DNA of 64,000 nt. It comes from an uncultured Acidobacteriota bacterium (GTDB lineage: Bacteria; Acidobacteriota; UBA6911). Positions 28,137-59,145 of the stretch are shown piece by piece (position 1 is the stretch's first letter; the number at the start of each line of letters is the position of its first letter). Below the pieces are notes generated by a model that saw only the letters and a program-made list of their open reading frames with translations, was not told the origin of the DNA and did no database searches. The position numbers were made by a program, and so were the translations under genes. The stretch spans positions 418,682 through 482,681 of the forward strand of contig CAWHCF010000049.1 of the NCBI GenBank assembly GCA_963827655.1, written 5' to 3'.

Positions 28137-28207
28137 GTGCCTGTAGCTCAGTTGGATAGAGCAATGGTTTCCTAAACGGATCCTCCAAAATCCAAGCCCT
28201 TGGAAAT
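28137..28207 (+). repeat. att-like copy A: 5' half of tRNA-Arg(CCT) plus truncated arm sequence
   Basis: GTGCCTGTAGCTCAGTTGGATAGAGCAATGGTTTCCTAAAC then GGATCCTCCAAAATCCAAGCCCTTGGAAAT; no T-arm. Confidence 0.88.
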
Positions 28208-28279
28208 GACGATGCGATCGTTCCTTCGCGTCTTGATCATCCGAATACATTAGAGTTCATGATGAGAGCACCTGCCGAT

Positions 28280-30541
28280 CTACGGTGCATTCCCCAACTG
28301 CCGGAGTATCCCCGTCGCCCGCTCGCGCGTTGCTGCGTCCGAGCTGGACGCAGCTTTTTGAAGGTGCGGAACTGCGCCCCTCGAGTCGCCGACGGCTGCC
28401 AACGCCGAGCCTAATCCGAGATGCGCACGCGCAGATTCAGGCTTGATCCGAATGGCTTCGCGATAGCGCGGAACGGCATCCCGCGCTTGTCCCTTCGCCA
28501 TCAGCAGATCTCCGAGGAGCTGGTGGGCATCCGCAAATTCGGGGTCGGCGCGCAACCCAGCCTCCAACTCGCGCTGCGCGTCGTCGTACCGGTTGGTCCG
28601 GCCGAGCAGCATTGCATAGTTGTACCGGGTGGCGGCATCACCGGGCCGGAGCCGTAGGGCGATTTCGAAATGCTCCCGTGCCTCACCCGAGTTACCTGCT
28701 CCCGAAAGAAGATTGGCCAGGTTGCCGTGCGCGTCCGCGTAATCAGGGCGAATCCGGATGGCTTCTCGAAAGGCCGACTCGGCGCGCACCTGAGCACCTC
28801 CCGCAAACCACATAATGCCCAGGTTGTTGTGGGCCTCGGGCAGATCCGGATCGCGCTCGAGAGCCTTTCCAATTGCGGTCACGGCATCCGTGCTTCTGCC
28901 CAGCGCCCGGTACGTCAGACCCAGTTCGTGCCATATCAAGGCGTCCCCGGGCGCAATTGAAGCAGCCCGCTCTAAGACTTCCGCCGCTTCCGGGTATTGC
29001 CCAGACCGCCGCAACGCGGTGCCGAGTTTCTGTAATCCAACTGTGAACTTCGAATTTCGGCGCACAGCCTCGCGGTACATCGGCAAAGCTTTGGCCAACT
29101 GCCCGTTACTTTGCAGCGCCTCGGCGAGTTCCAGATAAAATTCCGCCCGCTGTGGCGAATACTTGGCGATTGCCTTCGTGAGTTGCGCGATACCCTCCCT
29201 CAGATTGCTCCCCTGTTTCACCTGCGCGACGGCGAGATACAGCTCGTTTTCCGGTGTATGAGGCAGCTTTTCGGGATAGTACAAAACCACCGGACCACGA
29301 TATGCGTTGGCGCCCGTCTCCTGCCTTTCCGCCTTTTCTGCCAGGAGGTCTCCCGCGGGCTTTTGCCGCTGGATAAAGTGATCAGTTACGGCTACGTGGA
29401 CTACGTCCTCCGTGCGCCGTTTCGGCATGTGACAACCGGCGCAGCCGTTCGCGCGCGTGTGTTTCCCCGCCGCGACTTGCTGGTCGAAAGCCGGCCCGTG
29501 GCATTGACGGCAGACCGCGGTGTAATGCCGCTCTGCCGCTTCTCCCCGCGGAGCATCATGCGGATTGTGACAAGTGGTGCACAGCATCTTGCCATTGCTC
29601 TTCAGAAAACAGGCCGAGCGGCGCAAGCGATAAGCCGCGTTGACGATCTCGAACTTTTCTTCACGGCCGGTGCCTGGCGCGTGATCGAAATTCAGGATGT
29701 ACGCTTCCAAGGGCTCGCCCGGCCGGTATGTGAACGGGCCGCGATCATATCGCTGAATCGCGTTCGGCAATGGGAAGCTGGTGGTCCCCAGATGGCACGA
29801 CATGCAAATCTCCATCTGCCGCTCTGCGCTCAGCCGGGAAGGATTCACTATGGCGCTGCGGATGTCTTGCCGCTTGGCGCCTGCGGTCGCGGCCAACTGC
29901 ATGTGCCGGCTCCCCGGACCATGACACCGCTGGCAATCGATGCCTTCCGGCAGCGGACCCTCATAGACGGATTGCGCGAACGGCTGCTCATGCCCCGCGG
30001 GAATAGGTGGATACGCGTTGTGGCAGAACATGCAATCGTATGTGATGGGGCGGCGGAAACCGTCGTGATCCGGACGGTCGTAGCCCGGGTTCATCCCCCA
30101 GTAGCCGCCCTTCTCGGCATACCAGCCCAGCGGCAGCTGAATTAGAGTGTCAGCCGCTGTCCGGTGGAAATACGCACGCGCGTGATTTCCCGAACCCATA
30201 ATGTAGTCGATGCGCTTCTCCATCATGTTGACCTGTTTGCCACGAGAATCGATCTGGTACCGGCGCTGATAATGTTCGCCGCCACGCTGTAGCATCGTGA
30301 AGTAGCTGTCCGACGCTTGATGGTAGAACGTATTCTTGTCGCGGAAGTCTTCGATCATGTTCTCCGGCCAGGGGCGATAGAAAGATCTCCCCATGCCGGT
30401 CCGGCGGTAGGTCTCCCACACGTCCCGATGGCAGCCGGCGCAAACAGGAGCGTTCCCACTCTGGGCGCCTGCCACCCCCTGTACGGGCGCCGCTGCCAGC
30501 GGTGCCATCAGGAGCACTTTCAAAAGCCAATCCTGCCGCAT
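28280..30541 (-). CDS. Multiheme cytochrome c / TPR protein
   Basis: Seven CxxCH motifs (CAGCH, CMFCH, CQRCH, CMSCH, CTTCH, CRQCH, CAGCH) followed by TPR repeats. Confidence 0.88.
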   Translation of the reverse strand: MRQDWLLKVLLMAPLAAAPVQGVAGAQSGNAPVCAGCHRDVWETYRRTGMGRSFYRPWPENMIEDFRDKNTFYHQASDSYFTMLQRGGEHYQRRYQIDSRGKQVNMMEKRIDYIMGSGNHARAYFHRTAADTLIQLPLGWYAEKGGYWGMNPGYDRPDHDGFRRPITYDCMFCHNAYPPIPAGHEQPFAQSVYEGPLPEGIDCQRCHGPGSRHMQLAATAGAKRQDIRSAIVNPSRLSAERQMEICMSCHLGTTSFPLPNAIQRYDRGPFTYRPGEPLEAYILNFDHAPGTGREEKFEIVNAAYRLRRSACFLKSNGKMLCTTCHNPHDAPRGEAAERHYTAVCRQCHGPAFDQQVAAGKHTRANGCAGCHMPKRRTEDVVHVAVTDHFIQRQKPAGDLLAEKAERQETGANAYRGPVVLYYPEKLPHTPENELYLAVAQVKQGSNLREGIAQLTKAIAKYSPQRAEFYLELAEALQSNGQLAKALPMYREAVRRNSKFTVGLQKLGTALRRSGQYPEAAEVLERAASIAPGDALIWHELGLTYRALGRSTDAVTAIGKALERDPDLPEAHNNLGIMWFAGGAQVRAESAFREAIRIRPDYADAHGNLANLLSGAGNSGEAREHFEIALRLRPGDAATRYNYAMLLGRTNRYDDAQRELEAGLRADPEFADAHQLLGDLLMAKGQARDAVPRYREAIRIKPESARAHLGLGSALAAVGDSRGAVPHLQKAASSSDAATRERATGILRQLGNAP

Positions 30542-30551
30542 CGTGGCCCTC

Positions 30552-30581
30552 ATGTTAGCAAACTCGGCAATGTTAGCAAAC
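30552..30581. promoter_or_regulatory. 12-bp direct repeat in a divergent promoter region, possible operator
   Basis: ATGTTAGCAAAC at 30552 and 30570. Confidence 0.4.
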
Positions 30582-30706
30582 CCACGTGACAACAGTTCCG
30601 GCTTCTGCTAGTATGCCGAAAAATTCGAAGGGGTAACGGTAAAGACCTGATTCCAGCGGGATCAGGTAGTTTTTCAACGCGATCGCGCCCGGTCCAGGGG
30701 GTTTCC

Positions 30707-33700
30707 ATGATCAGATTCCGCAGCATTCCGCAAAGGACAAAGACGATCCTATTTGTTGTATTCGCAGCGTGGTTAATGCTCCCCGCTAGCTTGCTCGCGC
30801 AAAGCGGTGCGGGTTCAATTCAGGGCACAGTTCAGGACGTGACCGCAGCCGCTATCCCGGGCTGCTCGATCCATGTCGTCAACCAGGCCACGAACGTTGC
30901 CATTGAGACAACCTCGAGTACAAGCGGTTTTTACTCCGTGCCAGGCTTGTTTGCTGGCACGTACACGCTCACCTTCAGCTCTCCGGGTATGAAGAAGCAC
31001 GAGGCGGTCATCACGCTGCAAAACGCGCAAGTTGCGGTTCTGAATGTCGCGTTGAGCGTGGGTGACGTCGCCGAGAAAGTCGTCGTCACCGCAGAAACGG
31101 TGCAGCTTGCGACCTACGACAGCGGCACGGTCAGCACCCACCTCGATTCCACGCGCATTGACCAACTTCCGCAAAACGGCCGCAACGTGCTCGGCCTGGC
31201 ACAGAACACCGTACCCGGCCTCGAGGGTAATGGGACGCGCGCCAACGGACTCATGCAGGAGGCCATGGAGTATTCCCAAGACGGCGCGCCAATGACGAAT
31301 CGCAACTTCGGTGGTGAAGCCAACTCGGCGCAAGCCACGCTGCCAGACCCCGATGCCGTTCAGGAAGCTAAGTTCGAAATCCTCAATTCCAGCGCCAAGT
31401 TCGCCACGCCGGCCACGGTTATCCTGACCACGAAGTCGGGCACCAACGAATTCCACGGTTCGCTGTTTGAAACATTTCGAAACAACTATTTCGGTGTCGC
31501 CAAGGCGCGACAGAATCCGGCGGACTTCGCGGCGCCACACCTGGTGCGCAATGAATTCGGAGCCTCCATCGGCGGCCCGATCCTGATCCCCAAAATCTAC
31601 GACGGCAGGAACAGGTCGTTTTTCTTTTACGCGTACGAGCGTTTCTCCCTTCGACAGGCGGCCAACCAGTTGGTTGCCGTGCCTACCGTGCCGATGAGAA
31701 ATGGCGACTTCAGCGGTCTGGTGAACAGAGCGGGGATCCTGCAGCAACTCTACGACCCTAACACCACGCAGGGACCCGAGAGCAACTACGCGCGCCTTCC
31801 GTTTGTGAACAACCAAATCCCGCTTAGTCGCATCAGCCCGCTCGCTAAGACGATATATGCCGCAACGCCGCTCCCGCAGACGCCCGACAACCCACTGATC
31901 AATTCCAATTTCAATGCCGTGAACAACATCGAGCAGACGGTCCCGAACCACACCGCCCGATTCGATCACGTGTTCAACGAGAACAACCGGGCGTATTTCC
32001 GGTTCACGGACATCAATCAGCAGCAGCAGGCTCTGCGCAACTACCCGGCAAATTCGCCGGCCAACATTGAAGGCGGCGGACTGCCGGCAGGCGCGACAGG
32101 GTTTCAGCGGATCCCGATCCGGACGATCAGCGGCGCATTGGGCTATTCGAAAGTGTTTTCCCCGACATTCTTCTCCGAGACCGTCTTCAGCATGCAATGG
32201 CAGAGGATGTATGTCGAAGGGAACGAAGCCTCGCAAAGGAATTACGAAAAGCAGTTGGGCCTTCCGAATAACTTCGGCCAAATCGGTTTTCCCGACATTG
32301 GCGCGAACTTGATCATGCCTTATGGCGGTTCCATGTGGAATTACGGCATGAGCCAGCGCCTCTCCACGATCGACGAGAACCTCAACAAATTATGGGGTAA
32401 ACATGAGTTTGCGTTTGGCTTCCGTTACCGCCACGAAAAATTCGGCTATCTGTCCGACCGTTCTCCTGACCAGGTTGCTTTCACGAATTTTGGCACTGCC
32501 ATATACGATCCGACAACGGGGGCGAATTACGGCGCCCGTGCCAACACCGGCTATGCAGATGCAGACTTCTTCCTTGGATTGGGAAGCAGCTACAACCAGC
32601 GCAGGAACGCGCCGTTCAACGATTGTAGCCTGCAGGAGTTCGTTCTCTATTTGCAGGACAACTACCGCGTCAGCCAGAGGCTTACCCTTAATCTCGGACT
32701 CCGCTGGGAGGCGCATCCAGCTCCGCGCGCCCGCAATGATTACTTGGTGACCTTCGACCTCAAAAGCACATCGCTCGTCCTCCCCCGGCCGCTCGAGTAT
32801 TACGTTCAAGAGGGTCTGACGAGTCAGGCCATCCTCACCAACCTGAAGAATCTGGGTGTTAACTTCGCGACGCCCGATCAGGTCGGACTTCCCTCGCGCG
32901 GGTTCTACGGCAGTTATGGAAACTTCCTCCCGCGGCTGGGTTTTGCATACACACCTTCGTTCGGCCGGAACGGCACGGTCATCCGCGGAGGTTACGGCGA
33001 ACATATCTATCCGGTGCCCGTCCGTAACTCCATCCGGTATCTGACCGCTAACTACCCCTTCACCGCCAGCTACTCACAAAGCTACACGGCGGCTTCTCAG
33101 TCGCCGGACGGATTGCCGAACTTCCTGCTTCGGTCGGCGCCGGCCGTCATCGCCGGACAGAACAGCAGTAACGTAGTGAACAGCGAATCAACAACCGCGC
33201 TGCTTCCGGGCATTTCACTCGGCACAACTCTAAGTGCGGAATTATCCTCCGGCTCGGGTACGTGAAGGTAACATGAGCGTCGAACAGCCCTTCGGCGACG
33301 GCTCCGTGTTCCGGATTACGTACGTGTTCACGCACGGGGAAAATCTCGATCAGAACTATCAGTGGAACAACGCACCGTCCGCTTACGTGTGGCAGATGGC
33401 CACGGGAACCACGCCCCCCACCGGACCGCTAGCGTCCGTCGCGACCCGTCCCTACGACCAGACGGTATGGGGCGGCGGCAACCTGTCGATGAAGACGGGC
33501 TGGTCGAATGACAGCGCTCTGCAACTGAACTATCAACGGCCCTTCAGCAAGGGCATCGCGTACCAGATCTTCTACGTCTACTCGCGCGCCTTCCGCGTCG
33601 GAGGCAACACGTTCCGCGACAACACGCTTTATCCAGCCGCGAACTTTGCGCCCGGAGTGCTTCCTGCCGGCCTGGACGTCGGCACGCCTCTCGAGCCCAG

Positions 33701-34433
33701 CCGCGCTCTGAACCGCTACCAGAATTACATGGTCGATACCGCGATCCCGTTGCATCGCATCACCTTCAATGGAGTCTGGGACCTGCCGGCAGGCAGGGGC
33801 AAGCGCTTCCTGGGGAATTCGAACCGGTTGGTGGACGCGCTGCTTGGCGGCTATCAGGTGGCGTTCGTCGGCACGGTGGTCTCGCAGGCTTTCGCGGTGG
33901 CTTCAACGAACTGGGGCGCCACCAGTCCGATTCAGCGGTATAAGAACTCGGTTCCGGTGACGGACTGCCGCAGCGGCGTGTGCCATCCGGCGTACATGTG
34001 GTTCAACGGATACCTCTCGCCGACGCAGATAAACACGGCAAACGGTGTTCAGGGTCTTCCTTCCGGCTACACTCCGTATCTCGCTCCGATCAACAACACT
34101 CCCGGCGCCCCGAACTTCGGGAACAACAATGTGCCCGTCACGCTGAGTGACGGCAGGCAGGTAGTCACGGCGTACTCACCCGGACCGGGAACGGGCGCCC
34201 ATCCGTACGGCCATAGCGTCCTGGAGGGACCGATCAACCACCGTACGGACATTTCGTTGTACAAGATTTTCACCATCACTGAGAGTGTCAAGCTGCGATT
34301 CAACATGGACGCCTTCAATGCGTTCAACATCCAGGGTCTCGTGAACCCGAATTCGTCGGACGGCATCCAGTCTCTCCAGACCTCCTACTGGACGCCGCGT
34401 CAGATTCAGTTCACTCTTCGCCTGTTGTTCTAG
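30707..34433 (+). CDS. TonB-dependent receptor (one frameshift near 33235)
   Basis: ORFs 30707-33265 and 33234-34433 form one receptor ending RQIQFTLRLLF. Confidence 0.88.
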
Positions 34434-34595
34434 TAGCTCAGTTGGATAGAGCAACGGTTTCCTAAACGGATCCTCCAAAATCCAAGCCCTTGGAAATCAA
34501 GCATTTTCAAGGGCTTGATTTTTTCCTGCTTTGGGTTTCGTTGGGCAAAGTTGGGTATCTCTGTTGCTCGCGGGCAAAGTCTGGGCAAAGTCAAA
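34433..34595 (+). repeat. att-like copy B: 5' half of tRNA-Arg(CCT) (first bases missing) plus full arm sequence
   Basis: GTAGCTCAGTTGGATAGAGCAACGGTTTCCTAAAC, inverted repeat AAGCCCTTG...CAAGGGCTT, three GGGCAAAGT repeats. Confidence 0.9.
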
Positions 34596-34863
34596 TAAGA
34601 AACTCGAAGGGATGTTTCAAGTGGAGCATCCATGTGAATAGGGCCATTATTCTTATTTTGCCCGAACGGACGGTGGCAATCCGGATAAACAGAAGGTCGC
34701 GGAAATTCACAGGACTTTCGGCATTGGGTGGCTGGATCTGGATGCCGGATTCGGATGACATGTCGGAGTGAAGACGGGCAGGCCTCGGTTGGCCGATCTG
34801 ACCGAACCAAGCTTGTGCACTCCAATGAGAGTCGTTCGCTGCTGACCGCCTGGATGCCAGTCA

Positions 34864-35574
34864 ATGAGAACCATGGGGACGAGCTCTTTTCCGCCTACCC
34901 GCTGGAGCCTGATTATTGCTACGCGGGAGCGGCCAACCACGGAGGCGCGCAGGGCGCTGGCCACCCTGTGCGGCAGCTATTGGTATCCGCTTTATGCTTA
35001 TGCGCGAAGGGTCGGCCATAGCGTCGCTGACGCGGAAGATCTGACCCAGGGCTTTTTCGCGCGTTTGATCGAGAAGCACTATCTCGAGGACTACGACCGG
35101 GAGCGCGGGCGATTCCGGTCGTTCTTGCTCGCTTCGTTTCGTCATTACATTGCCAATGAACGGGACCGGGCGCTCGCTTGGAAGCGCGGTGGCGGTCGGG
35201 TGGTCGCTTTGGACCTCGAGGATGCCGAACGGCGTTACCGCCTGGAACCTGCCGATCCGATCACACCCGAACGCCTGTATGAGCGGCGCTGGGCGATGCT
35301 GCTGATCGAACGGGCGATGGAGAAGCTGGAAGCTGAGGCCGATCGACCCAGCCACTTCCAGCGCCTGCGCTTGTTCCTGACGGGCGAGCCGGCTAAGACT
35401 TCGTACCGGCAGCTTGCGGAACAGATGGGAGTCTCCGAAGGGGCCGCCAAGATGGCCGTGCACCGGCTGCGCGGGAAGTTCCGCAATCTGCTCCAGGCGC
35501 AAGTCGCCGAGACAGTGTCGGGCCCGGAAGAAACCAAGGAAGAATTGCGTTATCTGCTTTCGGTTCTGGCGTGA
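34864..35574 (+). CDS. ECF sigma-70 factor (kinase-associated type)
   Basis: FPPTRWSL, YWYPLYAY, AEDLTQGFF, RGRFRSFLL, VHRLR. Confidence 0.88.
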   Translation: MRTMGTSSFPPTRWSLIIATRERPTTEARRALATLCGSYWYPLYAYARRVGHSVADAEDLTQGFFARLIEKHYLEDYDRERGRFRSFLLASFRHYIANERDRALAWKRGGGRVVALDLEDAERRYRLEPADPITPERLYERRWAMLLIERAMEKLEAEADRPSHFQRLRLFLTGEPAKTSYRQLAEQMGVSEGAAKMAVHRLRGKFRNLLQAQVAETVSGPEETKEELRYLLSVLA

Positions 35575-35625
35575 CTTTATCCTCTGGTTGCTTCATTAAC
35601 AAAATGGAGCCAGGAGGTCGATAAC

Positions 35626-38556: not shown

Positions 38557-38567
38557 TCAAGGGTAAG

Positions 38568-38742
38568 GATAGAGTATCGAGAATCGAAGATAGAGGATCG
38601 AAGAAGGCGATTTTCAATTTTCAAGCACAAGCGGATGGCCGCAACCAAAGTGCTTTTAGTGTTTCTTTGTGTCTTCGTGACTTCGTGGTTAGAGCCGTCT
38701 AACAAATACCACTAAGGCTCAAAGACACGAAGAAACACTAAG
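38568..38742. repeat. Degenerate heptamer tandem repeats followed by inverted nonamer-repeat arms
   Basis: GATAGAG TATCGAG AATCGAA GATAGAG GATCGAA; TTAGTGTTTCTTTGTGTCTTCGTG...CAAAGACACGAAGAAACACTAA. Confidence 0.6.
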
Positions 38743-38871
38743 AATCTTTGCAGGAAAAAAGGTCGTGAGAACGCAGGCAAGCAACACGGAAAGTCAGAAG
38801 GTGAGCAGTATCCTGAGACGGGAACGCGCCGACGGCTGCGCAGTTGGCAAAAAAGAATGACCCCCCAAAAC

Positions 38872-45197: not shown

Positions 45198-45220
45198 ATC
45201 GGACGCGCGACGAACTCACG

Positions 45221-47918: not shown

Positions 47919-47985
47919 CGCGATCACTTGCGGCGCGCACTAACGCTTAGAAAATGGACAACGATTGTTTCAACAAGGAGGGCTT

Positions 47986-49010: not shown

Positions 49011-49027
49011 GCCGCAAGGAGGTACGC

Positions 49028-50433: not shown

Positions 50434-50466
50434 GAAGTAGTTGTATCAGTCAGGGTTGGAGAAATT

Positions 50467-51180: not shown

Positions 51181-51295
51181 ATGTGCGAGGCCGAGTTCAG
51201 TCAGGCCGAACGCCACCTGCGCCGCCTGGGCAAAGTCGCTTCACTGGAGAAGCAAGTCACTAGCAACAGTACCAGAGTATAACGAGGAAATAACC

Positions 51296-53378
51296 ATGAG
51301 CGCCGCGCAAGTCATTGACGCTTTGGCCGAAACGAAACTTGATCAACTTTGCATCAACACCATTCGCACGCTTTCGATCGATGCCGTGCAGCAGGCCAAA
51401 TCCGGACATCCCGGCACGCCGATGGCGCTGGCGCCGTTGGTCTACACGATCTGGAATCGGGTTCTGCGCTTCGATCCTCAAGAATCCGATCTGGCCCAAT
51501 CGGGATCGCTTTGTCCTGTCGAACGGCCATGCTTCGATGTTGCTCTGGTCGGCGCTTCATCTCAGCGGCACGCGGGCCGTCAACGCCGATTATGAAAGGC
51601 TTGGTGCAGCCCTCGGTGACGCTCGACGACATCCGGCGGTTCCGCCAGCTCGACAGTAAGGCGCCCGGTCACCCTGAGTACCATTGGGTGTCGGGCGTTG
51701 AGACGACGACGGGTCCCCTGGGGCAGGGCGTCGCCACGAGCGTCGGCATGGCCATCGCCGAGAAGTGGCTCACCAGCCGCTTCAACCGACCCGGCTTCGA
51801 GATCTTCGACTACAACATCTATGCCGTTTGCGGAGATGGCTGTTAATGGAGGGCGTTGCGTCTGAAGCGGCATCGCTGGCTGGTCATCTTGGGCTCGACA
51901 ATCTATGCTGGGTCTACGACAACAACCACATCACGATCGAGGGGAACACGCGTCTGGCGTTCACTGAGGATGTCGTGGCTCGCTTCCTGGCCTATGGTTG
52001 GAACGTCCTGCGGATCGGCGACGCGAACGATCGTGAGCGCATCGCGCAGGCGCTGGACATCTTCCGAAAGACGAAGGGGCGCCCACGTTCATCATTCTGG
52101 ACAGCCACATCGGGTACGGTTCGCCGCACAAGCAGGACACCGCAGCAGCTCATGGCGAGCCGCTCGGCGACGATGAGGTCCGGCTCACGAAACGCAGCTA
52201 CGAGTGGCCTGAGGATGAAAAATTTCTTGTTCCGGATGGAGTGTACGAGCACTTCGCGGCCGGCGTTGGCGCACGCGGCGCGAATTTGCGGCGTGAATGG
52301 ACGGGGCTGTTCGAAGCCTATAGAGCCAAGCACCCCGAACTGGCAAACGAGATCGAACTGATGGAGCGGCGGGAGCTCCCGATCGAGTGGGATCGCAACT
52401 TGCCTGTTTTTCCGCCCGATGCAAAGGGAATCGCTGGGCGGGACGCGTCGGGAAAGGCATTGAACGTGCTCGCACAAAATATCCCGTGGTTCCTCGGCGG
52501 CTCTGCGGATCTCGGGCCATCGAACAAGACCACCCTGAAGTTCGCCGGCGCGGGAGATTTCCAGGCTGAGAGCCCCAGCGGGAAGAACCTGCATTTCGGT
52601 ATTCGCGAGCACGCGATGGCCGCGATTGTGAACGGCCTCTCGTTGTCCAAACTCCGGGCTTTCGGCGCAAGCTTCTTCATCTTCAGCGACTACGCGCGCC
52701 CTGCGATTCGGCTCGCGGCGCTGATGGAGCTGCCCGCTATTTTCGTCTTTACGCACGACGCTATGGGCGACGGAGAAGACGGTCCCACTCACCAACCGGT
52801 CGAGCACCTTGCTTCGATGCGCGCGATACCCGGGCTGATCACATTGCGGCCCGGCGACGCCAACGAGGTAGTCGAGGCTTACCGCTACGTCATGCAATTA
52901 CGCCATCAGCCCGCGGCGTTGGCATTGTCGCGCCAACCGCTGCCGACGCTGGATCGCGGCAAATACGCGCCGGCGTCAGGGGTCGCGCACGGCGCCTATG
53001 TGCTCGCCGACGCTCCCGGCGGAGACCCCGAAGTGATCTCATCGCCTCGGGCAGCGAAGTCATCCTGGCGGTCGAGGCCCACGATAAGCTGCTCGCCGAA
53101 GGCATCCGTTCGCGGGTAGTGTCTATGCCTCCTGGGAGATTTTCGATCACCAGACCGAGGAGTACCGGGACAGCGTGCTGCCACCGAACGTAAAGGCGCG
53201 CGTCGCCGTGGAGCAGGCCTCCACTTTGGGATGGGAGCGATACGTTGGCCCCTCTGGTCACGTCATCGGCATGAAGACGTTCGGGGCTTCGGCGCCGCTC
53301 AAGGAATTGCAGCGGAAGTTCGGGTTCGAACCGGACCAGGTGGTTGCGGCCGCAAAGAAGCAATTGGACAGGAAATGA
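51296..53378 (+). CDS. tkt: Transketolase (multiple frameshifts)
   Basis: [56 protein letters not shown] spread over several frames. Confidence 0.9.
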
Positions 53379-53397
53379 GTCGCCTAAGGATCGTACT

Positions 53398-53662
53398 ATG
53401 GCTGACGCAATTGCCGTCCTGAACGCTGGCTCATCCAGCATTGACTTCTCCCTCTTCGTCAGGCGCGGCGGTGAGCTGGAGCTCGAACTCGAACTGCGCG
53501 GCCAGGTCGAAGGGATCTACACCATGCCTCACTTCATCGCGAAAAGGCGTGGCGGGCCGACGGCGGCGGAAAAGTCCTGGGCCGAGGGCACGAAGCTCGG
53601 CCATGATTGCGCGCTCGATCACCTGGTCGCGTTTCTGCGCTCCGAGCTCGCGGATGACCGTC
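53398..53662 (+). pseudogene. ackA: Acetate kinase N-terminal fragment
   Basis: MADAIAVLNAGSSSIDFSLF; ends before the GHRVVHGG motif. Confidence 0.75.
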
Positions 53663-53797
53663 TATACAAGCGCCAGCTGCTGAACGCGCTTCGGATCGTG
53701 GTGCTTTGTAGCCAGTTCCGGGAAGTTCTCAAGTGATCGAACCATCGCCGAGTACGCGGCCGACATCTGGAACGTGAAGCAGTGACCGGTGGAGTGA
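53663..53797 (+). pseudogene. glgP: Two fused fragments of glycogen phosphorylase
   Basis: [14 protein letters not shown] then [19 protein letters not shown]. Confidence 0.8.
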
Positions 53798-53831
53798 AGT
53801 CGCCGGCAAAATTATCGAAGGGGAACGACCC

Positions 53832-55514
53832 ATGCCAATTTCTCCACTTGCAGGCAAGCCTGCCGACCCATCGTTGCTGATCAACGTGCCCCGGCTGGTA
53901 ACCGCGTATTACACGAGGCAACCGGATCCAGCAGTACCCGCACAACGCGTCGTGTTTGGAACTTCCGGGCACCGCGGCTCCGCGCTCGATAATGCGTTCA
54001 ATGAGGCGCATATCCTCGCAATCACGCAGGCGATTTGCCTCTATCGCAAACAGCAGGGCATCGACGGACCTCTCTACATCGGCGCCGATACGCACGCGCT
54101 TTCGGAGCCCGCTTTTGCCAGCGCTTTGGAGGTGCTGGTAGCGAATGGCGTCGACGTGATGGTCGATGCCGACAATGGCTACACTCCTACCCCGGTAATC
54201 TCGCACGCGATTCTCACCTACAATCGCGGACGGAAGCGCGGGCTCGCGGACGGCATCGTCATTACACCATCGCATAATCCGCCACGATTCGGCGGCTTCA
54301 AATACGATCCGCCCACCGGTGGACCCGCAGACACCCACGTCACCGAATGGATAGAACGACAGGCGAACGCCTTGATTGCCGACGGCCTGCGCGGGGTGGC
54401 GAGAGTACCGTTTGAACGTGCTCGGAGCGCTTCCACCGTACACCCCCATCAGTACCTCGATTCCTATGTGCGCGATCTTCCTTCGGTGATCGATCTTCAG
54501 GCAATCCGCGAGAGCAAGGTTCGCATCGGTGTGGATCCGTTGGGCGGCGCCAGCGTGGCTTACTGGGATGCCATTGGCGACCGCTACGGACTCAATCTGG
54601 AGGTCGTGAACCACGTCATCGATCCTACCTTCCGCTTCATGACGGTCGATTGGGACGGCCAAATCCGGATGGACCCTTCGTCGGTGTATGCGATGGCAAG
54701 CCTGGTCGGACTCAAGGAGCGATTCGACGTAGCCTTTGCCAGCGACACCGATGCCGATCGGCACGGAGTTGTAAGCCGCAGCCATGGGCTCTTAGATCCG
54801 AACCGCTATCTCTCAGTTGCTATCTCATACGTGTTCGCCAACCGCCCGCAATGGTCGCATGCGGTCGCCGTTGGCAAGACCGTCGTCAGCAGCAGCATGA
54901 TCGATCGCGTGGTGAAAAGGCTAGGCCGACGGCTGGTTGAAGTTCCGGTAGGTTTCAAGTGGTTCGTGGGAGGACTCATCGACGGCTCACTCGGATTCTG
55001 CGGCGAGGAAAGCTCGGGCGCAACATTCTTGCGTCGTGATGGCACGGTCTGGACGACGGATAAAGATGGGCTTGTCCCGAACTTGTTAGCAGCCGAGATC
55101 ACCGCGCGGACAGGCAAAGACCCGGGCGAGCACTATCAAGAACTGACAGCCGAGTTCGGCACCCCATACTACACACGCATCGATGCCCCAGCGACGCCGG
55201 AACAGAAAGCGAGACTGCAAAAATTGTCGCCCGAGGTGGTTGTAACTGCGAAACTCGCTGGCGAGCCGATCACAACCAAACTGACTGCGGCCCCGGGTGA
55301 CGAGGCACCGATCGGCGGCCTCAAGGTAGTGACTGCCAACGGCTGGTTCGCCGCCCGACCCTCCGGCACCGAGGATATCTACAAGATCTATGCGGAGAGT
55401 TTTAAGGATCAAGGCCACCTGGACGCGATCGTGAGCGAAGCCCATGAGATCGTGAACGATGCACTAAATTCCTTTGATTCAGTTCACCAGCAGCGGGAGG
55501 GCGCTCCGAAATGA
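53832..55514 (+). CDS. pgm: Phosphoglucomutase (alpha-D-glucose-phosphate-specific)
   Basis: [35 protein letters not shown]. Confidence 0.95.
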
Positions 55515-55527
55515 CGGAGGCCGCGTC

Positions 55528-56199
55528 ATGACCCCGAGCCCAATTGTTTTTCTAGTTGACGTCGACAACACGCTACTCGACAACGACCGGGTCCAGAATG
55601 ACCTCAAGCGTCACCTTGAACGTGAGTTCGGGGCGCCCTGCCGCGACCGGTATTGGGCGATTCTCGAACAGCTCTTCACTGATCTGGGCTACCGCGATTA
55701 TCTCGGCGCCCTTCAACTCTATCGGGTCGAACACCCGCAAGATATTCACCTGCTGTCGATGTCGTCATTCCTGTTGGACTACCCGTTCGCCAATCGTCTC
55801 TATCCCGGATCGCTCGACGTGCTTGAGCGGTTCCGCTCCTGGGGACAAACGGTAATCCTCTCGGACGGCGATGTGGTTTTTCAACCACGCAAGATCGAAC
55901 GCTCGGGCATCTTCGAAGCTGTCGAAGGCAACGTCCTCATCTACATTCACAAAGAAGAGGCGCTGGATGACGTCAAGCGGCGTTACCCGGCTCAGCACTA
56001 TGTTCTCGTGGACGACAAGCTGCGCGTCTTGACCGCAGTTAAGAAGGCCTGGAGGTCGCGCGTGACCACGGTCTTTCCCCGGCAAGGTCAATATGCCCAT
56101 GACCGAAACATCATTGCCCAATCCCCGCCCGCGGACCTAACGGTAGAGCGCATCGGCGACCTGCTTGACTATGAACTGTCCGCCTTGCTCGCGGGTTAA
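55528..56199 (+). CDS. HAD-family hydrolase
   Basis: DVDNTL, LSDGD, VDDK. Confidence 0.85.
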   Translation: MTPSPIVFLVDVDNTLLDNDRVQNDLKRHLEREFGAPCRDRYWAILEQLFTDLGYRDYLGALQLYRVEHPQDIHLLSMSSFLLDYPFANRLYPGSLDVLERFRSWGQTVILSDGDVVFQPRKIERSGIFEAVEGNVLIYIHKEEALDDVKRRYPAQHYVLVDDKLRVLTAVKKAWRSRVTTVFPRQGQYAHDRNIIAQSPPADLTVERIGDLLDYELSALLAG

Positions 56200-56231
56200 C
56201 GGTCGGTTCATCTTTCTCAGGAGGTGACAAG

Positions 56232-56380
56232 ATGATGCATCAAACTGAGTGGGCCGTGATTCTGGCGGGTGGAGACGGAACCAGACTAAACCCACCCTTG
56301 TGGCCTGAGCGATTGGCCGTGATCAAGGTCGATAGGTAAGGCATTTTGGCGATTCATTGACTTGGGTTGGGGCGCAACCT
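56232..56380 (+). pseudogene. Internally deleted sugar-phosphate nucleotidyltransferase remnant
   Basis: RBS then MMHQTEWAVILAGGDGTRL, followed closely by PERLAVIKVD. Confidence 0.6.
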
Positions 56381-56473
56381 TGACTTGCGACGACATGGTG
56401 GTCCATCTTGATGCTCTTTGGCTATCGCTTCTTCGGGTTACGAATGCTGTCTACTCATTGCGCCTAAGCGCCG

Positions 56474-57265
56474 TCAGATATCATTCCTTCTCATGACGAT
56501 GATCGTCTCATCATCCAGACGCTCTCCGTCTCCGCGAAAGGCCCGGAGTGCTGACGCGAGTTGAGTGCCGAGTGCTTCGGCGGAGCTGGAGTCAAGCGCG
56601 CGCGCCATATTCATCAGGCCGTCCCGACCGAGTTCATTTCCAGCTGGACTGGTGGCTTCGGAGACGCCGTCGCTGTATAGCACCATCAGGTCGCCTGATT
56701 GCGGTTTGACGATTAACCGGTCGTAGGTGACGTCGGGGAGCAGGCCAAGCGGCAGACCCGCCGGTCGCCCTCGCTCGCTCGCGCGTTGCGTTTCAAGCCA
56801 GCTCCACTCGTCGCGCGAGGCACGATACCAAAGAGGAGGAGGGTGCCCCGCGTTCGTCATTACCACCAGACCCCGACGGCCGTGCCACCCAAGTGCCACC
56901 ATCGTGGCGTAGTGCCCGTCGCCAAGTCCTTCTCGAACCGCCTGATTGAGATCCCGCATCAGTGCGATCTGTTCCAGGTCGCGAAGGTACCGCTGCATGA
57001 GGTTTCGGAGCTTCTCGCCGAACACCGCCACTGCCTGTCCGTGGCCGCTCACATCCGCAAGCGCGATCCGCGAAACGATGCAACTCGGACACACGGACAC
57101 GTAGTGGACATCGCCGCCAGTGTGAGTTGGCCCCACCGGCACCGAATGCACCCATGCAGTTAAACCTGGCAGTTCGACCAGACTCGCGGCACGCTCGCTA
57201 CCGGCCCATGTTTCTGCACACGCAAGGTGCCGCGGCATCGACTGGATCGGATTTTCACTGTTCAC
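56474..57265 (-). CDS. PP2C/SpoIIE-family phosphatase
   Basis: GGDVH, ADVSGHG, NAGHPPP, YSDGVSE, DDET. Confidence 0.9.
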   Translation of the reverse strand: MNSENPIQSMPRHLACAETWAGSERAASLVELPGLTAWVHSVPVGPTHTGGDVHYVSVCPSCIVSRIALADVSGHGQAVAVFGEKLRNLMQRYLRDLEQIALMRDLNQAVREGLGDGHYATMVALGWHGRRGLVVMTNAGHPPPLWYRASRDEWSWLETQRASERGRPAGLPLGLLPDVTYDRLIVKPQSGDLMVLYSDGVSEATSPAGNELGRDGLMNMARALDSSSAEALGTQLASALRAFRGDGERLDDETIIVMRRNDI

Positions 57266-57306
57266 GGCAAGCCCCGTTAACGTTCATCGCTCTTCTTTCT
57301 CAGTAC

Positions 57307-57765
57307 CTGTTCCTGGCGAATTCTGAATTCGGCGTCATTCCGTTCACGCGTCCAGGACGAATTGTCCCAATCCTTCGACTTTCCGATTTTCAAACGCGGC
57401 ACCCAAATTGAAACCGGACTATTCAAAGGTGAACGGGCGAGTCTGACGCGCTGAGCCATTGCTCAGCCCTATTCGCTTGCCCGGAATGCGTTCGATGACC
57501 GTTATCGTAATGTTGGAAATCAAGTAGCTTCGTCTCCAGATCTGTCGTGGTCCAGAATAGAATTCGGTCGAGGTGTTCGCGCCGAACCGTACCGATAAGG
57601 CGTTCTACGAACGGATGCGAGAGCGGCAGGTAAGGGACAGTCTTGATTTCCGTCATCTCGAGTACTCGAAGATTGGCTTGCCATTGGTGGAACCGAAACA
57701 GCGGATTATGATCCGAGCTGAGGTATTTTAGCAGACTTTGCCCGCAAATCGTTCGATTGAACATC
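57307..57765 (-). mobile_element. 3' remnant of an integrase-core (rve) transposase element
   Basis: YLSSDHNPLF, PLSHPFVERLIGTVRREHLD, YDNGHRTH. Confidence 0.75.
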
Positions 57766-57789
57766 CGGCGGTGTCGTCAAGCCGCTTAT

Positions 57790-58770
57790 CTCGAAAATCG
57801 AGGATTGCTAAACAGCGTGCGGCTCCAGCGTAACTTTATGTACCAACTTCTCGAGACGCTTTACCAAGTAACGAGCCAGACGATCCCTTTGGAGGTGGTC
57901 AAAAAAGTTCTCTCCCAGTTCCTGGTAGACTGCGCGATGTTTTAGGAGGCGGTAGACTACGATCAGGATCGTATGTCCCACAGCCATAATGGCTCGTTTC
58001 CGTCCGCGCCTAGCCGCCAAACGGTGGTATTGGGCTTTCAAATAGGTGCCCTTCGTTCGGTTGCCAGCCCAGGCTGCTTCGCATAAGCTGCGGCGCAGCC
58101 AACGACTCCCCTTGCGGGTTCTGACGGACCGGCGTTTGCCTGCGCTCTCGTTTTGTCCCGGGCACATTCGGGCCCACGAGGCCAAGTTCCTGGCGGTGGG
58201 GAACTGACTCATGTCGGGACCTAGTTCCGCGATCAGGTTTTCCGCGGCTCGTCGGTCAATCCCAGGAATCGTACAAGCGTACAGACTCCTGAAGCGGAGC
58301 CATACGCCTTTCAATCTCTGCGGAGACTCGGGCGATGGTTTGGTCCAGATACTGCACTGTGGTTCATCAACTCGCCCAGCAAGAAACGGTGGTGATCCGT
58401 TAAGCGACCCTCCAGAGACTTTCTCAATTGGTTCGTCTTGCTCTTCAGGCGGCCTCGGGCCATGTCGGCCAGCACCACCACATCTTGTTGACCGGCAATC
58501 AAAGCCTGCAAGATGGCCACGCCGGATCGCCCCAATACGTTACTGGCTACCGAACCTAGCTTGATATTGGCGTCCTCCAGTACCTTCTGAACGCGATTGG
58601 CTACCGTCGCTCGCTGTTGGCTCAATTTGCTCCGGTGGCGCGTCAGGTCTCGCAGTTCTCGGACTGGACGAGGGGGGTACAAAGCTGCCGCGCAACAACC
58701 CATGTTGGAGCAGTTGCGCGATCCATTCGCAGTTGTCTGACGTCAACCATTTCTTTTTCCCGTAGTGACT
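57790..58770 (-). mobile_element. Degraded IS110-family transposase
   Basis: WIAQLLQHGLLRGSFVP, ELRDLTR, IPGI..RAAENLIAELG, CPGQNESAGK; frameshifts, N-terminus missing. Confidence 0.85.
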
Positions 58771-58974
58771 CACCGAAAAATCTAACTATCCGGAAGTTGT
58801 TGCTTCATAACTCTTAAAGAGAAAGCCGGAAAGAGAGAATCAGTATCATCTGGTTTCTTGTTTTTGGCGTTTGGTTGTTACCTTTTGCGCAACCAAATTC
58901 CGATGCTCGCCGGACCCAACGAGATCATCTTGTCTCGTTTCTTCGCCAGGCAGCTGGCCTTTCGTTCGAGCTCG

Positions 58975-59103
58975 GCCATAACATCGTCAGCGAGGGCGAT
59001 CTCTTCGATGCCGCCAAGCGCCTGGATGCGGCGGCGGGCAAAGTCAGCCATTTTCAGCGCGCCGATATGTTAAATCTGCCGGCAACTGATTGATTCTACT
59101 AGT
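58975..59103 (+). pseudogene. 3' tip of a tyrosine integrase gene plus extended -10-like motif
   Basis: HNIVSEGDLFDAAKRLDAAAGKV; TGTTAAAT; TCTGCCGGCAACTGATTGATTCTAC shared with 45319-45343. Confidence 0.72.
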
Positions 59104-59145
59104 GCGCCTGTAGCTCAGTTGGATAGAGCAACGGTTTCCTAAACC
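59104..59145 (+). repeat. att-like copy D: 5' half of tRNA-Arg(CCT), followed by a different arm type
   Basis: GCGCCTGTAGCTCAGTTGGATAGAGCAACGGTTTCCTAAACC; downstream ATGCACAATTT x2 near 59252-59274. Confidence 0.88.

What the first reader, a model, noticed from the sequence alone, without database searches (positions are those of the whole stretch)
28137..59145. Tandem array of integrase-less cargo cassettes delimited by 5' halves of tRNA-Arg(CCT)
Seen: four direct-repeat copies of the tRNA-Arg(CCT) 5' half (28137, 34433, 45349, 59104), all ending just after the anticodon loop TTCCTAA. Three continue into the same arm-like sequence with an inverted repeat and GGGCAAAGT repeats (truncated in the first). 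They bracket unrelated cargo: cytochrome/TPR + TonB receptor; ECF/kinase pairs + crystallin + phosphoesterase; pentose-phosphate cluster. Known: many tyrosine integrases cross over in the 7-bp anticodon loop, but most islands duplicate the tRNA 3' part. Inference: sister elements carrying the 5' half in attP integrated serially at one site, lack their own integrase, and form an integron-like or MITE-like cargo array mobilised in trans.
Basis: partly seen in the sequence, partly recalled or inferred. Interest (0 to 1): 0.9.

Follow-up and report, generated by a model that had tools for sequence, protein, structure and literature searches.

The report
Decayed tandem islands at tRNA-Arg gene
Four leftover front halves of one arginine tRNA gene mark where related mobile DNA islands inserted one after another into that gene and then lost their own insertion enzymes, which is a known way for bacterial genomes to pile up foreign genes.

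Summary
Four direct copies of the tRNA-Arg(CCT) 5' half lie at 28137, 34433, 45349 and 59104, all ending just after the anticodon loop. Three run into the same arm, which carries GGGCAAAGT repeats.

The array is best read as serial integration (tandem accretion) of tyrosine-integrase islands whose attP carries the tRNA 5' half.
- The intact tRNA sits on another contig (C41), directly behind a full-length but frameshifted integrase ending ERYNIVSEGDL.
- Units 2 and 3 keep about 25-30 codons of an integrase tail just left of copies 3 and 4, so they descend from integrase-bearing elements.
- The integrase family is large. A tRNA follows the gene in 48 of 80 fetched loci: 15 co-oriented (5' type) and 33 convergent (3' type).
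- Relatives show single 5'-type elements at tRNA-Arg(CCT). They also show similar decayed arrays at tRNA-Leu.

No cognate intact integrase was found in this 90%-complete genome. No reads were available to test for circular forms. An integron-like or MITE-like system is not supported. The closest known concept is CIME/accretion arrays and Islander-type tRNA islands, of which 159 of 3919 have 5' fragments. I rate it a new member of a known kind, of modest interest.

The parts
28137..28177 (+). Copy 1 of the tRNA-Arg(CCT) 5' half (positions 1-41, 2 mismatches). Leftmost recognisable junction, of attL type.
28178..28207 (+). Truncated P' arm of unit 1. 30 nt identical to the arm after copy 2, cut inside the hairpin; a 33-nt sequence repeated elsewhere in the genome follows.
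28208..34432 (.). Unit 1 cargo: a multihaem cytochrome/TPR protein (28280-30592, minus strand) and a TonB-dependent receptor in two frames (30707-33265 and 33234-34433). No integrase and no P arm; the receptor's stop codon abuts copy 2.
34433..34467 (+). Copy 2 of the tRNA 5' half (positions 7-41, 100% identical); its first 6 nt are deleted.
34468..34595 (+). P' arm of unit 2: terminator-like hairpin with T run, TTGGGT repeats, and GGGCAAAGT at 34543, 34572 and 34583.
34596..45221 (.). Unit 2 cargo: ECF sigma factor with Ser/Thr kinase-PD40; a second kinase with ECF sigma; a MITE (41099-41318) next to a minus-strand integrase N-terminal fragment (40843-41101); a crystallin-like protein; a phosphoesterase.
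45222..45348 (+). P arm of unit 2: integrase C-terminal remnant (..GDLSDAAKRLDGAAGKLRAKSAN) holding arm sites GGGCAAGTT and GGGCAAAGT, then 27 nt identical to the sequence upstream of copy 4.
45349..45389 (+). Copy 3 of the tRNA 5' half (positions 1-41, 100% identical).
45390..45518 (+). P' arm of unit 3: terminator-like hairpin at 45406-45438 with T run, TTGGGT repeats, and GGGCAAAGT at 45495 and 45506.
45519..58976 (.). Unit 3 cargo, much of it broken: a truncated TonB receptor, DUF2090, 6PGD and G6PD (frameshifted), 6PGL, transketolase in pieces, phosphoglucomutase, HAD, a SpoIIE phosphatase, an rve_3 fragment and IS110 transposase in two pieces.
58977..59103 (+). P arm of unit 3: integrase C-terminal remnant (..NIVSEGDLFDAAKRLDAAAGKV..) with GGGCAAAGT at 59036.
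59104..59145 (+). Copy 4 of the tRNA 5' half (positions 1-42, 100% identical).
59146..59380 (+). P' arm of unit 4, of a different type. ATGCACAAT occurs twice (59252, 59264); a 23-nt stretch (59250-59272) is identical to the P arm between the integrase and the intact tRNA on C41.
59381..64000 (.). Left part of unit 4, running to the contig end. It contains a minus-strand 3' half of a tRNA-Leu(TAA) (about 59380-59436) followed by TTGGGTATTGTTGGGTAT, HTH fragments, a large serine recombinase (60882-62951, minus strand) and transposase-like HTH fragments.

Best explanation
The region is a tandem accretion array of integrative genomic islands at the single tRNA-Arg(CCT) gene.

**How each element integrates.** Each element belongs to one family of tyrosine-integrase elements whose core site is the anticodon stem-loop of a tRNA gene. 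In these elements the integrase gene sits at one end. Its 3' tail overlaps the P arm, and the tRNA part carried in attP follows directly. Here the tRNA is co-oriented with the integrase, so attP carries the 5' half (presumably with the tRNA's upstream region). Integration rebuilds an intact tRNA at the integrase-proximal end. The old 5' half is left at the far end, next to the P' arm.

**How the array grew.** On the simplest reading, each newcomer entered the regenerated tRNA and pushed the older units leftwards. The result is: half 1 - unit 1 - half 2 - unit 2 - half 3 - unit 3 - half 4 - unit 4 - integrase - intact tRNA (on contig C41).

**How it decayed.**
- Unit 1 has lost its integrase and P arm entirely.
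- Units 2 and 3 keep only the last 25-30 integrase codons with the arm-type sites.
- Unit 4 keeps a full-length integrase with one frameshift.
- Units 3 and 4 carry many broken genes.
- Units 1-3 are therefore CIME-like relics.

**Shown:** the repeats, the arms, the integrase remnants, the intact tRNA with its integrase, the family-wide link between integrase and tRNA in both orientations, and comparable elements in relatives.

**Inferred:** the physical link from the C49 end to the C41 end, the order of integration, the hairpin acting as a terminator for the orphaned 5' half, and the present immobility of the units.
For: **1. Junction anatomy.** There are four direct 5' halves, each ending 2-3 nt after the anticodon loop.
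- The junctions at copies 2 and 3 look like attP (P arm - core - P' arm), as expected between tandem elements.
- GGGCAAAGT arm-type repeats flank the cores, all on the + strand: 9 found against 0.46 expected, 7 of the 9 in the arms.

**2. Integrase remnants.** They lie left of copies 3 and 4. In L040 an apparently intact relative has two GGGCAAAG sites inside its C-terminal coding tail, just before its tRNA.

**3. The intact tRNA-Arg(CCT).** It is on C41, 40 nt downstream of a co-oriented integrase that reads full-length in two frames and is 96% identical to an intact 358-aa protein.
- Its P arm shares a 23-nt exact stretch, containing ATGCACAAT twice, with the arm after copy 4.
- Genes downstream of the C41 tRNA have orthologues (62% and 51% identity) just downstream of tRNA-Arg(CCT) in relative G006.

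**4. Family behaviour.** In 48 of 80 fetched loci a tRNA lies within 400 nt of the integrase 3' end: 15 co-oriented and 33 convergent.
- Within the flanks of 10 kb or less, 3 of the 15 co-oriented loci show an upstream 5'-half copy (positions 1-41 to 1-45). Five of the 33 convergent loci show a 3'-half copy (starting at positions 27-39).
- On a quick tree of 45 rows the orientation type changes at least 4 times.
- 7 of the 120 listed homologues have ORFs that read into the tRNA 5' half (..PVAQLDRATVS).

**5. Relatives of the same bacterial family.**
- G006 and G065 each have: 5' half - element (9.1 kb and 3.2 kb) - integrase - intact tRNA-Arg(CCT).
- G013 has two 5' halves on one contig.
- The same P' arm module (TTGGGT and GGGCAAAGT repeats, 78-85% identity) follows displaced 3' halves of tRNA-Leu(TAA) or tRNA-Phe(GAA) in five other genomes.
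- G022 and G044 have tandem junctions with no integrase or a decayed one.

**6. Decay.** Coverage by ORFs of 250 aa or more has a genome median of 0.76.
- Unit 3 scores 0.53 (8th percentile).
- The unit 4 part in the window scores 0.42 (2nd percentile).
- The unit 4 part on C41 scores 0.14 (lowest of 790 bins).
- Soil-metagenome contigs of relatives differ by 1-nt indels at 48668 and 51478, where the 6PGD and transketolase frames break.

**7. Literature (passages read).**
- Islander lists 159 of 3919 islands with 5' fragments, 2083 with anticodon-centred attP, 125 tandems of 2 or more, and 4 tandems of 3 or more (PMC4383910).
- Serial integration with fragmented integrases and scattered partial tRNAs is described in Prochlorococcus islands (10.1101/2020.12.28.424599).
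- CIMEs and accretion are described in PMC5704250.
Against: - The link between the window and the intact tRNA is not shown. The window stops at the contig end, and the ends of C49 and C41 share no sequence.
- Unit 1 has no integrase trace. Similarity of the sequence left of copy 1 to the integrase tail is not significant (15-30 of 500 shuffles score as well), so whether copy 1 is the original attL is open.
- Left-flank synteny with relatives was not found. The two proteins tried have their matches on other contigs than those with tRNA-Arg(CCT).
- The tail remnants start within about 10 codons of each other: left of copies 3 and 4, at 13441-13520, and beside tRNA-Val on C29. Random independent deletions would not be expected to do this.
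- Cargo of the presumed oldest units (1 and 2) is more intact than that of the youngest. This fits the model only with an added assumption that useful genes were kept.
- A tRNA-Leu 3' half inside unit 4 and a minus-strand integrase N-terminal fragment inside unit 2 show later rearrangements that the simple model does not describe.
- No close relative (same genus) was available for presence/absence comparison.
Confidence: 0.8

Rival explanations
1. The units are non-autonomous cargo cassettes that spread as such. Each keeps only a minimal attP-like module of about 300 bp: integrase tail with P-arm sites, tRNA 5' half, terminator and P' arm. A cognate integrase encoded elsewhere inserts and excises them in trans. 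This is the first reader's idea, close to CIMEs or to satellites of integrative elements.
For: - Units 2 and 3 retain both arms and intact cores.
- The integrase remnants left of copies 3 and 4 begin at the same point, and two further tail-only remnants exist: 13441-13520, and C29 beside tRNA-Val.
- The arm module is conserved at 78-85% identity across genera while the flanks differ.
- An integrase-less 6.3-kb unit between two junctions exists in G022.
- Integrases with GGGCAAAG arm sites exist elsewhere (L040).
Against: - No intact family member is found in this genome, which is 90% complete: 0 of the 9 matching stretches (about 5 loci) is an intact gene.
- The exact P-arm pattern was found in 0 metagenome contigs. 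The arms plus tRNA half gave no arm match next to a tRNA-Arg half in 50 relatives.
- In relatives, C-terminal integrase fragments start anywhere from about position 235 to 303 of the 355-position profile, so there is no fixed boundary. Retention of the tail can be explained by its closeness to the tRNA that was once intact.
- Unit 1 lacks a P arm, and the right end of the G022 unit has no tail.
- Many cargo genes are broken.
Confidence: 0.13
2. The repeated junctions arose without site-specific integration. Either one junction was duplicated by segmental duplication or unequal crossing-over, or repeats were collapsed or mis-joined during assembly.
For: - The junction repeats are short (41-300 bp) and could mislead an assembler.
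- No reads were available to check. No run holds half of the sampled words; the best holds 0.12.
Against: - The copies differ from one another: 93% identity between the arms of copies 2 and 3, and 84% between the left arms of copies 3 and 4.
- Each copy is embedded in unique sequence within a 482-kb contig.
- The arms have the polarity and arm-type repeats expected of att sites.
- The same architecture is seen as single elements in other genomes.
Confidence: 0.03
3. The 5' halves followed by hairpin and T run are expressed genes for small RNAs (tRNA-half-like), kept for a function of their own.
For: The 5' half plus terminator-like hairpin would give a defined transcript of about 100 nt at copies 2 and 3. 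Similar hairpins follow displaced 5' halves in 3 of 7 external junctions.
Against: - No Rfam family matches at E of 1 or less in 27000-64000.
- Copies 1 and 4 lack the hairpin.
- Copy 2 lacks the tRNA's first 6 nt and its upstream region.
- No sigma-70-like promoter was called upstream of copy 1 or copy 3.
- Expression could not be tested.
Confidence: 0.03

Closest known systems
Islander-type genomic islands in tRNA genes with anticodon-centred attP and a 5' tDNA fragment (Hudson, Lau and Williams 2015, PMC4383910; passages read)
   Same: A tyrosine integrase next to the regenerated tRNA. The displaced tRNA fragment marks the far end. The identity block ends at the anticodon loop. Tandem arrays occur at one tDNA.
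   Different: Only 159 of 3919 Islander islands have 5' fragments, and only 4 arrays have 3 or more members. Islander accepts a tandem member only if it has its own integrase, so units 1-3 here would be missed. The host here is a soil acidobacterium-like genome (the named homologues are annotated as Acidobacteria; the loci are mostly so labelled).
CIMEs and tandem accretion of ICEs/IMEs in streptococci (reviewed in PMC5704250; passage read; primary papers by Pavlovic 2004 and Bellanger 2011 seen only as references)
   Same: Elements that have lost integration genes but keep attL and attR, standing in tandem with a later-arriving element at the same target gene.
   Different: - No conjugation or mobilisation genes were seen.
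- The neighbouring integrase (unit 4) is frameshifted and has other arm-type sites (ATGCACAAT, not GGGCAAAGT), so cis-mobilisation is unlikely.
- The target here is the 5' half of the tRNA, not the 3' end of a gene.
- Mobility is untested.
Tycheposon-built islands at tRNA genes in Prochlorococcus (10.1101/2020.12.28.424599; passages read)
   Same: Successive integrations at one tRNA separated only by partial tRNA copies. Newcomers push older elements into the island. Fragmented integrases and extra partial tRNAs remain as remnants. The cargo is metabolic.
   Different: A different phylum. Whether the integrases are related was not tested. No replication or packaging modules were seen here.
Integron cassette arrays
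   Same: A linear series of cargo units separated by recombination sites at one platform.
   Different: No IntI and no attI or attC sites. The units are 6-14 kb and multi-gene on both strands. The sites are tRNA halves with arm-type repeats.

Membership tests
tRNA-integrating tyrosine-integrase island (Islander criteria) | A displaced tDNA fragment, in the same orientation as the intact tDNA and on the correct side of it (5' fragment upstream) | tested here: inconclusive
   Four 5' fragments lie on the + strand of C49. The intact tRNA is on another contig (C41) and the contig ends do not overlap. The configuration is met in relatives G006 and G065 and in L023, L032 and L057.
tRNA-integrating tyrosine-integrase island (Islander criteria) | A tyrosine integrase gene (PF00589) inside each island | tested here: not met
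   - Units 1-3 have none. Units 2 and 3 keep only 25-30 tail codons.
- Unit 4 has a full-length gene broken by one frameshift.
- Its intact 96% relative P0002 scores 65.2 bits against a cut-off of 27.1.
tRNA-integrating tyrosine-integrase island (Islander criteria) | The identity block between fragment and tDNA ends at a known sublocation (anticodon loop) | tested here: met
   Fragments end at tRNA position 41 or 42, 2-3 nt past the loop TTCCTAA. Most 3'-type fragments in this genome and family start at positions 27-33, with outliers at 21, 39 and 55-57.
tRNA-integrating tyrosine-integrase island (Islander criteria) | Arm-type repeats on both sides of the core | tested here: met
   - GGGCAAAGT occurs 9 times against 0.46 expected; 7 of the 9 are in P or P' arms.
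- ATGCACAAT occurs twice in both the P' arm (window) and the P arm (C41) of unit 4.
- Binding by the integrase was not tested.
CIME (cis-mobilizable element) | Has lost integration and transfer genes | tested here: met
   No intact recombinase of the family lies in units 1-3. The IS110 and rve_3 pieces in unit 3 are fragments.
CIME (cis-mobilizable element) | Retains both attL and attR | tested here: inconclusive
   Units 2 and 3 have core plus arms at both ends. Unit 1 has a truncated P' arm and no P arm. Whether the sites still function is untested.
CIME (cis-mobilizable element) | Excises or transfers together with a neighbouring functional element | not testable with these tools
   No sequencing run holds the region. 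The neighbouring integrase is frameshifted and has different arm sites.
Integron | IntI integrase with attI, and cassettes ending in attC | tested here: not met
   - No integron integrase appears among the Pfam and NCBIfam hits.
- The junctions are tRNA halves with arms.
- The units are multi-gene, 6.3, 10.9 and 13.8 kb long (spacings).
MITE-like non-autonomous transposon | Terminal inverted repeats (and target-site duplication) delimiting the unit | tested here: not met
   The units are bounded by direct repeats. The only MITE-like elements (13152-13391, 16984-17223, 41099-41318) are separate 240-nt insertions.

The most novel reading that the evidence does not exclude
These acidobacterial integrases use the symmetric anticodon stem-loop in either orientation. 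Their 5'-type elements replace the front of the tRNA gene, and often add a terminator behind the orphaned half. In this reading, integrase-less derivatives that keep only the roughly 300-bp att module remain substrates for cognate integrases encoded elsewhere. The tRNA gene then works as an open gene-capture platform: an integron-like array of large metabolic and regulatory cassettes, shuffled in trans among soil bacteria.
Probability: 0.12. Interest if true: 0.65.

Novelty: new member of a known kind. Interest (0 to 1): 0.3.

Why it matters
- It gives a clear, well-delimited example of how a large soil-bacterial genome (8.2 Mb) stacks foreign gene blocks at one tRNA gene. The blocks include sigma/kinase pairs, TonB receptors and a pentose-phosphate cluster.
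- It shows that one abundant integrase family (2009 database relatives at E of 0.001 or less) serves tRNA genes from either side.
- For annotation, integrase-requiring island finders would miss three of the four units. Orphan 5' tRNA halves are useful boundary markers.
- Seen as plain decay it adds nothing new in mechanism. If the integrase-less units proved mobilisable in trans it would be of wider interest.

Tried and rejected
**Reads.**
- The look-up of sequencing runs found no run holding the stretch. The best share was 0.12, and 0 of 9 holders had half of the words.
- Laying four soil or rhizosphere runs gave only short contigs (up to about 700 nt) of relatives. None bridged a junction, so circular forms, empty sites and assembly order could not be tested.

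**Searches for the arms and the integrase.**
- An exact scan of metagenome contigs for a 23-nt P-arm stretch gave 0 hits.
- The DNA search in 40 relatives with the left flank matched little beyond the tRNA, the toxin-antitoxin genes and a repeat at the flank's first bases. No same-genus genome is held.

**Flanks.**
- Left-flank synteny was not found with the two proteins tried. Matches lie on other contigs than those with tRNA-Arg(CCT).
- An integrase-tail remnant left of copy 1 was considered and rejected as not significant. MAFFT did not align it either.

**Other tests.**
- Rfam gave no match in 27000-64000 at E of 1 or less.
- The sigma-70 promoter scan upstream of the tRNA halves and of the intact tRNA gave none, so no claim is made on the tRNA promoter.
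- An inversion between the inverted MITE copies (13.2 kb and 41.1 kb) was considered as the origin of the two isolated integrase fragments. It was rejected because the predicted arrangement does not rebuild one gene (reasoning).
- The second ARAGORN 'tRNA-Arg(cct)' on C51 (88 nt, 70% GC) lies in what reads as repeat-protein coding sequence. It bears no similarity to the halves and I treat it as a false call.
- The careful tree did not finish; the quick tree was used.

Full report
**1. Observation**

The window is the last 64 kb of a 482,681-bp contig (C49) of an 8.18-Mb, 53-contig genome that is 90% complete. ARAGORN finds no tRNA in the window.

The repeat finder gives four direct copies of a 43-nt block at 28135, 34425, 45347 and 59102. 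I compared them with the genome's tRNA-Arg(CCT), at C41 c[225091,225167]. They cover tRNA positions 3-41 (97% identical), 7-41, 1-41 and 1-42 (all three 100%). Every copy stops 2-3 nt after the anticodon loop TTCCTAA.

Downstream of the copies:
- Copies 2 and 3 share 164 nt at 93% identity.
- Copy 1 shares only the first 30 nt of that arm.
- Copy 4 runs into different sequence.

The shared arm holds a 14-bp hairpin followed by a T run. It then has TTGGGT repeats and GGGCAAAGT repeats. GGGCAAAGT occurs 9 times in the window against 0.46 expected; none of 100 shuffles reaches 9, and 7 of the 9 lie in the arms.

**2. Integrase traces**

Left of copies 3 and 4 the two sequences are 84% identical over 172 nt. 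They translate to ..GDLSDAAKRLDGAAGKLRAKSAN and ..NIVSEGDLFDAAKRLDAAAGKV... This is the C-terminal tail of a tyrosine integrase, and the GGGCAA(A/G)(G/T)T sites lie inside that coding tail.

An apparently intact relative from another acidobacterial genome (L040) ends ..ERYNIVSEGDLFEAARKLDAFAGKDTGKDG. It has two GGGCAAAG sites in the same place, just before its tRNA. Units 2 and 3 therefore derive from integrase-bearing elements, and in this family the P arm overlaps the end of the integrase gene.

Unit 1 has no such trace. The TonB receptor gene ends in ..LLF-stop exactly where the 5'-truncated copy 2 begins. Similarity of the sequence left of copy 1 to the tail is not significant.

**3. The intact tRNA**

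The tRNA-Arg(CCT) on C41 lies 6.7 kb from that contig's end. It sits 40 nt downstream of a co-oriented integrase gene. The gene is full-length but read in two frames, with one frameshift after ..ARVFP in a short C run. An intact 358-aa database protein is 96% identical to it over the searched N-terminal region, and 91% over the C-terminal part.

Between the integrase stop and the tRNA lies ATGCACAATTTCATGCACAAT. The same 23-nt stretch occurs 105 nt after copy 4, at 59250-59272. I infer that unit 4 starts at copy 4, runs off the end of C49, and ends at the C41 integrase and tRNA. The two contig ends share no sequence, so this link is inferred and not shown.

Two genes downstream of the C41 tRNA have orthologues (62% and 51% identity) directly downstream of tRNA-Arg(CCT) in relative G006. 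This fits C41 being the ancestral right flank.

**4. The integrase family**

The family has 2009 database relatives at E of 0.001 or less among 2988 candidates. The few that a source names are annotated as Acidobacteria. The catalytic signature R..H-x-x-R..H..Y is invariant in a 19-sequence alignment.

Of the 80 best loci fetched from species-representative genomes, 48 have a tRNA within 400 nt of the integrase 3' end. It is co-oriented in 15 and convergent in 33. The other 32 have none, and several of those have under 300 nt of sequence left after the gene.

Within flanks of at most 10 kb:
- 3 of the 15 co-oriented loci show a copy of the tRNA 5' half upstream: Arg-TCT positions 1-45, Lys-TTT 1-41 and Arg-CCT 1-43.
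- 5 of the 33 convergent loci show a 3'-half copy, starting at positions 27-39.
- 2 co-oriented loci show a 3' half downstream instead.

A quick maximum-likelihood tree was built from 45 of the 48 loci. Three were dropped: two with stops and one too short. It needs at least 4 changes of orientation type on well-supported branches.

Seven of the 120 listed homologues end in ..PVAQLDRA(T/A)VS. This is the translation of the tRNA 5' half up to the TAA of the anticodon loop.

In the window's own genome, the family members are:
- the frameshifted C41 copy;
- broken copies beside tRNA-Met on C46 and on C27;
- a tail-only remnant beside tRNA-Val on C29;
- an N-terminal fragment in the window, at 40843-41101 on the minus strand.
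None is intact.

The family thus uses the anticodon stem-loop as core. It always sits with its 3' end towards the tRNA. It carries whichever tRNA half lies on its side.

**5. Relatives of the same bacterial family (50 genomes; none of the same genus)**

- G006 has: 5' half - 9.1 kb - integrase - intact tRNA-Arg(CCT).
- G065 has the same layout with 3.2 kb.
- G013 has two 5' halves on a 5.6-kb contig.

The P' arm module of units 2 and 3 recurs at 78-85% identity in seven places in six other genomes. In each place it lies about 70 nt behind a displaced 3' half of tRNA-Leu(TAA) or tRNA-Phe(GAA) on the opposite strand (the tRNA identities are my reading of the printed sequences). This is the mirror arrangement expected for 3'-type elements.

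G022 has two such junctions 6.4 kb apart. They enclose an FMN reductase, a kinase-PD40 protein and an MFS transporter, with no integrase. G044 has a truncated, mutated integrase followed by a junction, and a second junction 6 kb on. Decayed tandem arrays are therefore common in this group.

**6. Decay**

Pfam shows split genes inside the array:
- TonB receptor;
- 6PGD and G6PD;
- transketolase;
- IS110 transposase;
- and, on C41, an astacin, a TIR-NTPase and the integrase.
I saw no split genes among the 22 ORFs scanned in the 28 kb left of the array.

| Region | Coverage by ORFs of 250 aa or more | Rank among 790 genome bins |
|---|---|---|
| Genome median | 0.76 | - |
| Left flank | 0.79 | - |
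| Unit 1 | 0.96 | - |
| Unit 2 | 0.69 | - |
| Unit 3 | 0.53 | 8th percentile |
| Unit 4, window part | 0.42 | 2nd percentile |
| Unit 4, C41 part | 0.14 | lowest |

(All values.)

Relatives' metagenome contigs differ by single-base indels at 48668 and 51478, where the 6PGD and transketolase frames break. Whether these breaks are mutations or assembly errors cannot be told without reads. They are concentrated in units 3 and 4, which argues against a genome-wide error rate.

**7. Mechanism proposed**

*Shown:* the att-like anatomy, the family's link to tRNA genes, and the decay.

*Inferred:* each element integrated by integrase-mediated crossover in the anticodon loop between attP (integrase tail/P arm - tRNA 5' half - P' arm) and the chromosomal tRNA. 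Newcomers entered the regenerated tRNA, so older units lie to the left. The integrases were then lost.

The hairpin and T run behind the orphaned 5' half may stop transcription from the displaced tRNA start. Such hairpins follow:
- 2 of 4 window halves;
- 3 of 7 external 5'-type halves;
- 1 of 5 3'-type fragments.
This is suggestive only.

Tail-only remnants may persist because a deletion reaching further would have damaged the then-functional tRNA and its upstream region. In relatives, C-terminal fragments are frequent but start anywhere between about profile positions 235 and 303.

**8. What remains unexplained**

- The near-identical start of four tail remnants in this genome.
- The better state of cargo in the presumed older units.
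- The tRNA-Leu(TAA) 3' half with its own TTGGGTAT arm inside unit 4.
- The minus-strand integrase fragment beside a MITE in unit 2.
- A 3' half of tRNA-Arg(CCT) on contig C40.

**9. Comparison with known systems**

Passages read in Islander (PMC4383910) list 159 of 3919 islands with 5' fragments, 2083 with anticodon-centred attP, 125 tandems of 2 or more, and 4 tandems of 3 or more. A tandem member there must carry its own integrase.

The tycheposon preprint (10.1101/2020.12.28.424599) describes neighbouring elements separated by partial tRNAs, with fragmented integrases as remnants.

The IME review (PMC5704250) defines CIMEs and accretion.

My recollection that Williams (2002) described sublocation preferences of integrase subfamilies comes from no call.

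The array is a member of this known kind. Its less common features are the 5' configuration, four junctions in a row, and the host group. It is not an integron and is not MITE-like.

**10. Verdict**

Interest is 0.3.

No supplementary files were consulted.

Noticed in passing
window 13152-13391, 16984-17223, 41099-41318 (inverted): A 240-nt MITE-like element with roughly 33-nt terminal inverted repeats (TAAGGGCTCGCGCAGAAATAACTTCACATTCTG...). Three copies, 87-100% alike. One lies just upstream of an integrase-tail remnant and one abuts an integrase N-terminal fragment.
   Followed up: partly
window 13441-13520: An isolated integrase C-terminal remnant, 78% identical to the one left of copy 4. 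It lies 15 kb left of the array with no tRNA half beside it, and may mark an older, eroded junction.
   Followed up: partly
window 59380-59436 (minus) and 59501-59519: A 3' half of a tRNA-Leu(TAA), starting at the anticodon loop, followed by TTGGGTATTGTTGGGTAT. This is an attL-like junction of a 3'-type element inside unit 4. ARAGORN finds no intact tRNA-Leu(TAA) in the 53 contigs.
   Followed up: partly
G000 C40:69473-69516: A 3' half of tRNA-Arg(CCT) (positions 33-77, 96% identical), 5 kb from that contig's end. It suggests a 3'-type event at the same tRNA or a rearrangement.
   Followed up: no
window 25700-27116: A 1.4-kb stretch with a 442-aa ORF (no Pfam or NCBIfam hit) is 99% identical to C28:2210-3628. 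Its first 86 nt recur on C50, C27 and C32 and in other genera. It is probably an uncharacterised insertion sequence just left of the array.
   Followed up: partly
window 27484-28087: A HigB-like toxin and HTH antitoxin pair directly left of copy 1. An 87% identical copy lies on C8:11013-11670, about 500 nt from a tRNA-Glu 3' fragment (C8:10447-10491). The pair may itself travel with integrative elements.
   Followed up: no
window 3090-4070 (minus): A 326-aa ORF with a C-terminal Colicin_D domain (PF11429, E 1.1e-13). I recall that colicin D cleaves arginine tRNAs in the anticodon loop. No link to the array was examined.
   Followed up: no
window 28207-28239: A 33-nt sequence at the break of unit 1's P' arm recurs at 88-91% identity in five other places in the genome (C49, C6, C2 twice, C28). 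Its nature is unknown.
   Followed up: no
window 60882-62951 (minus): A 689-aa large serine recombinase (Resolvase, Recombinase and zinc-ribbon domains; weak XisF-like match) in unit 4. This is a second, unrelated recombination function.
   Followed up: no
G000 C29:18178-18300: A tail-only integrase remnant (..AVFERYNIVDEGDLFDAARRLE..) with ATGGCCAAAGTC twice, directly beside the intact tRNA-Val(TAC). It has the same kind of boundary as the remnants in the window.
   Followed up: partly
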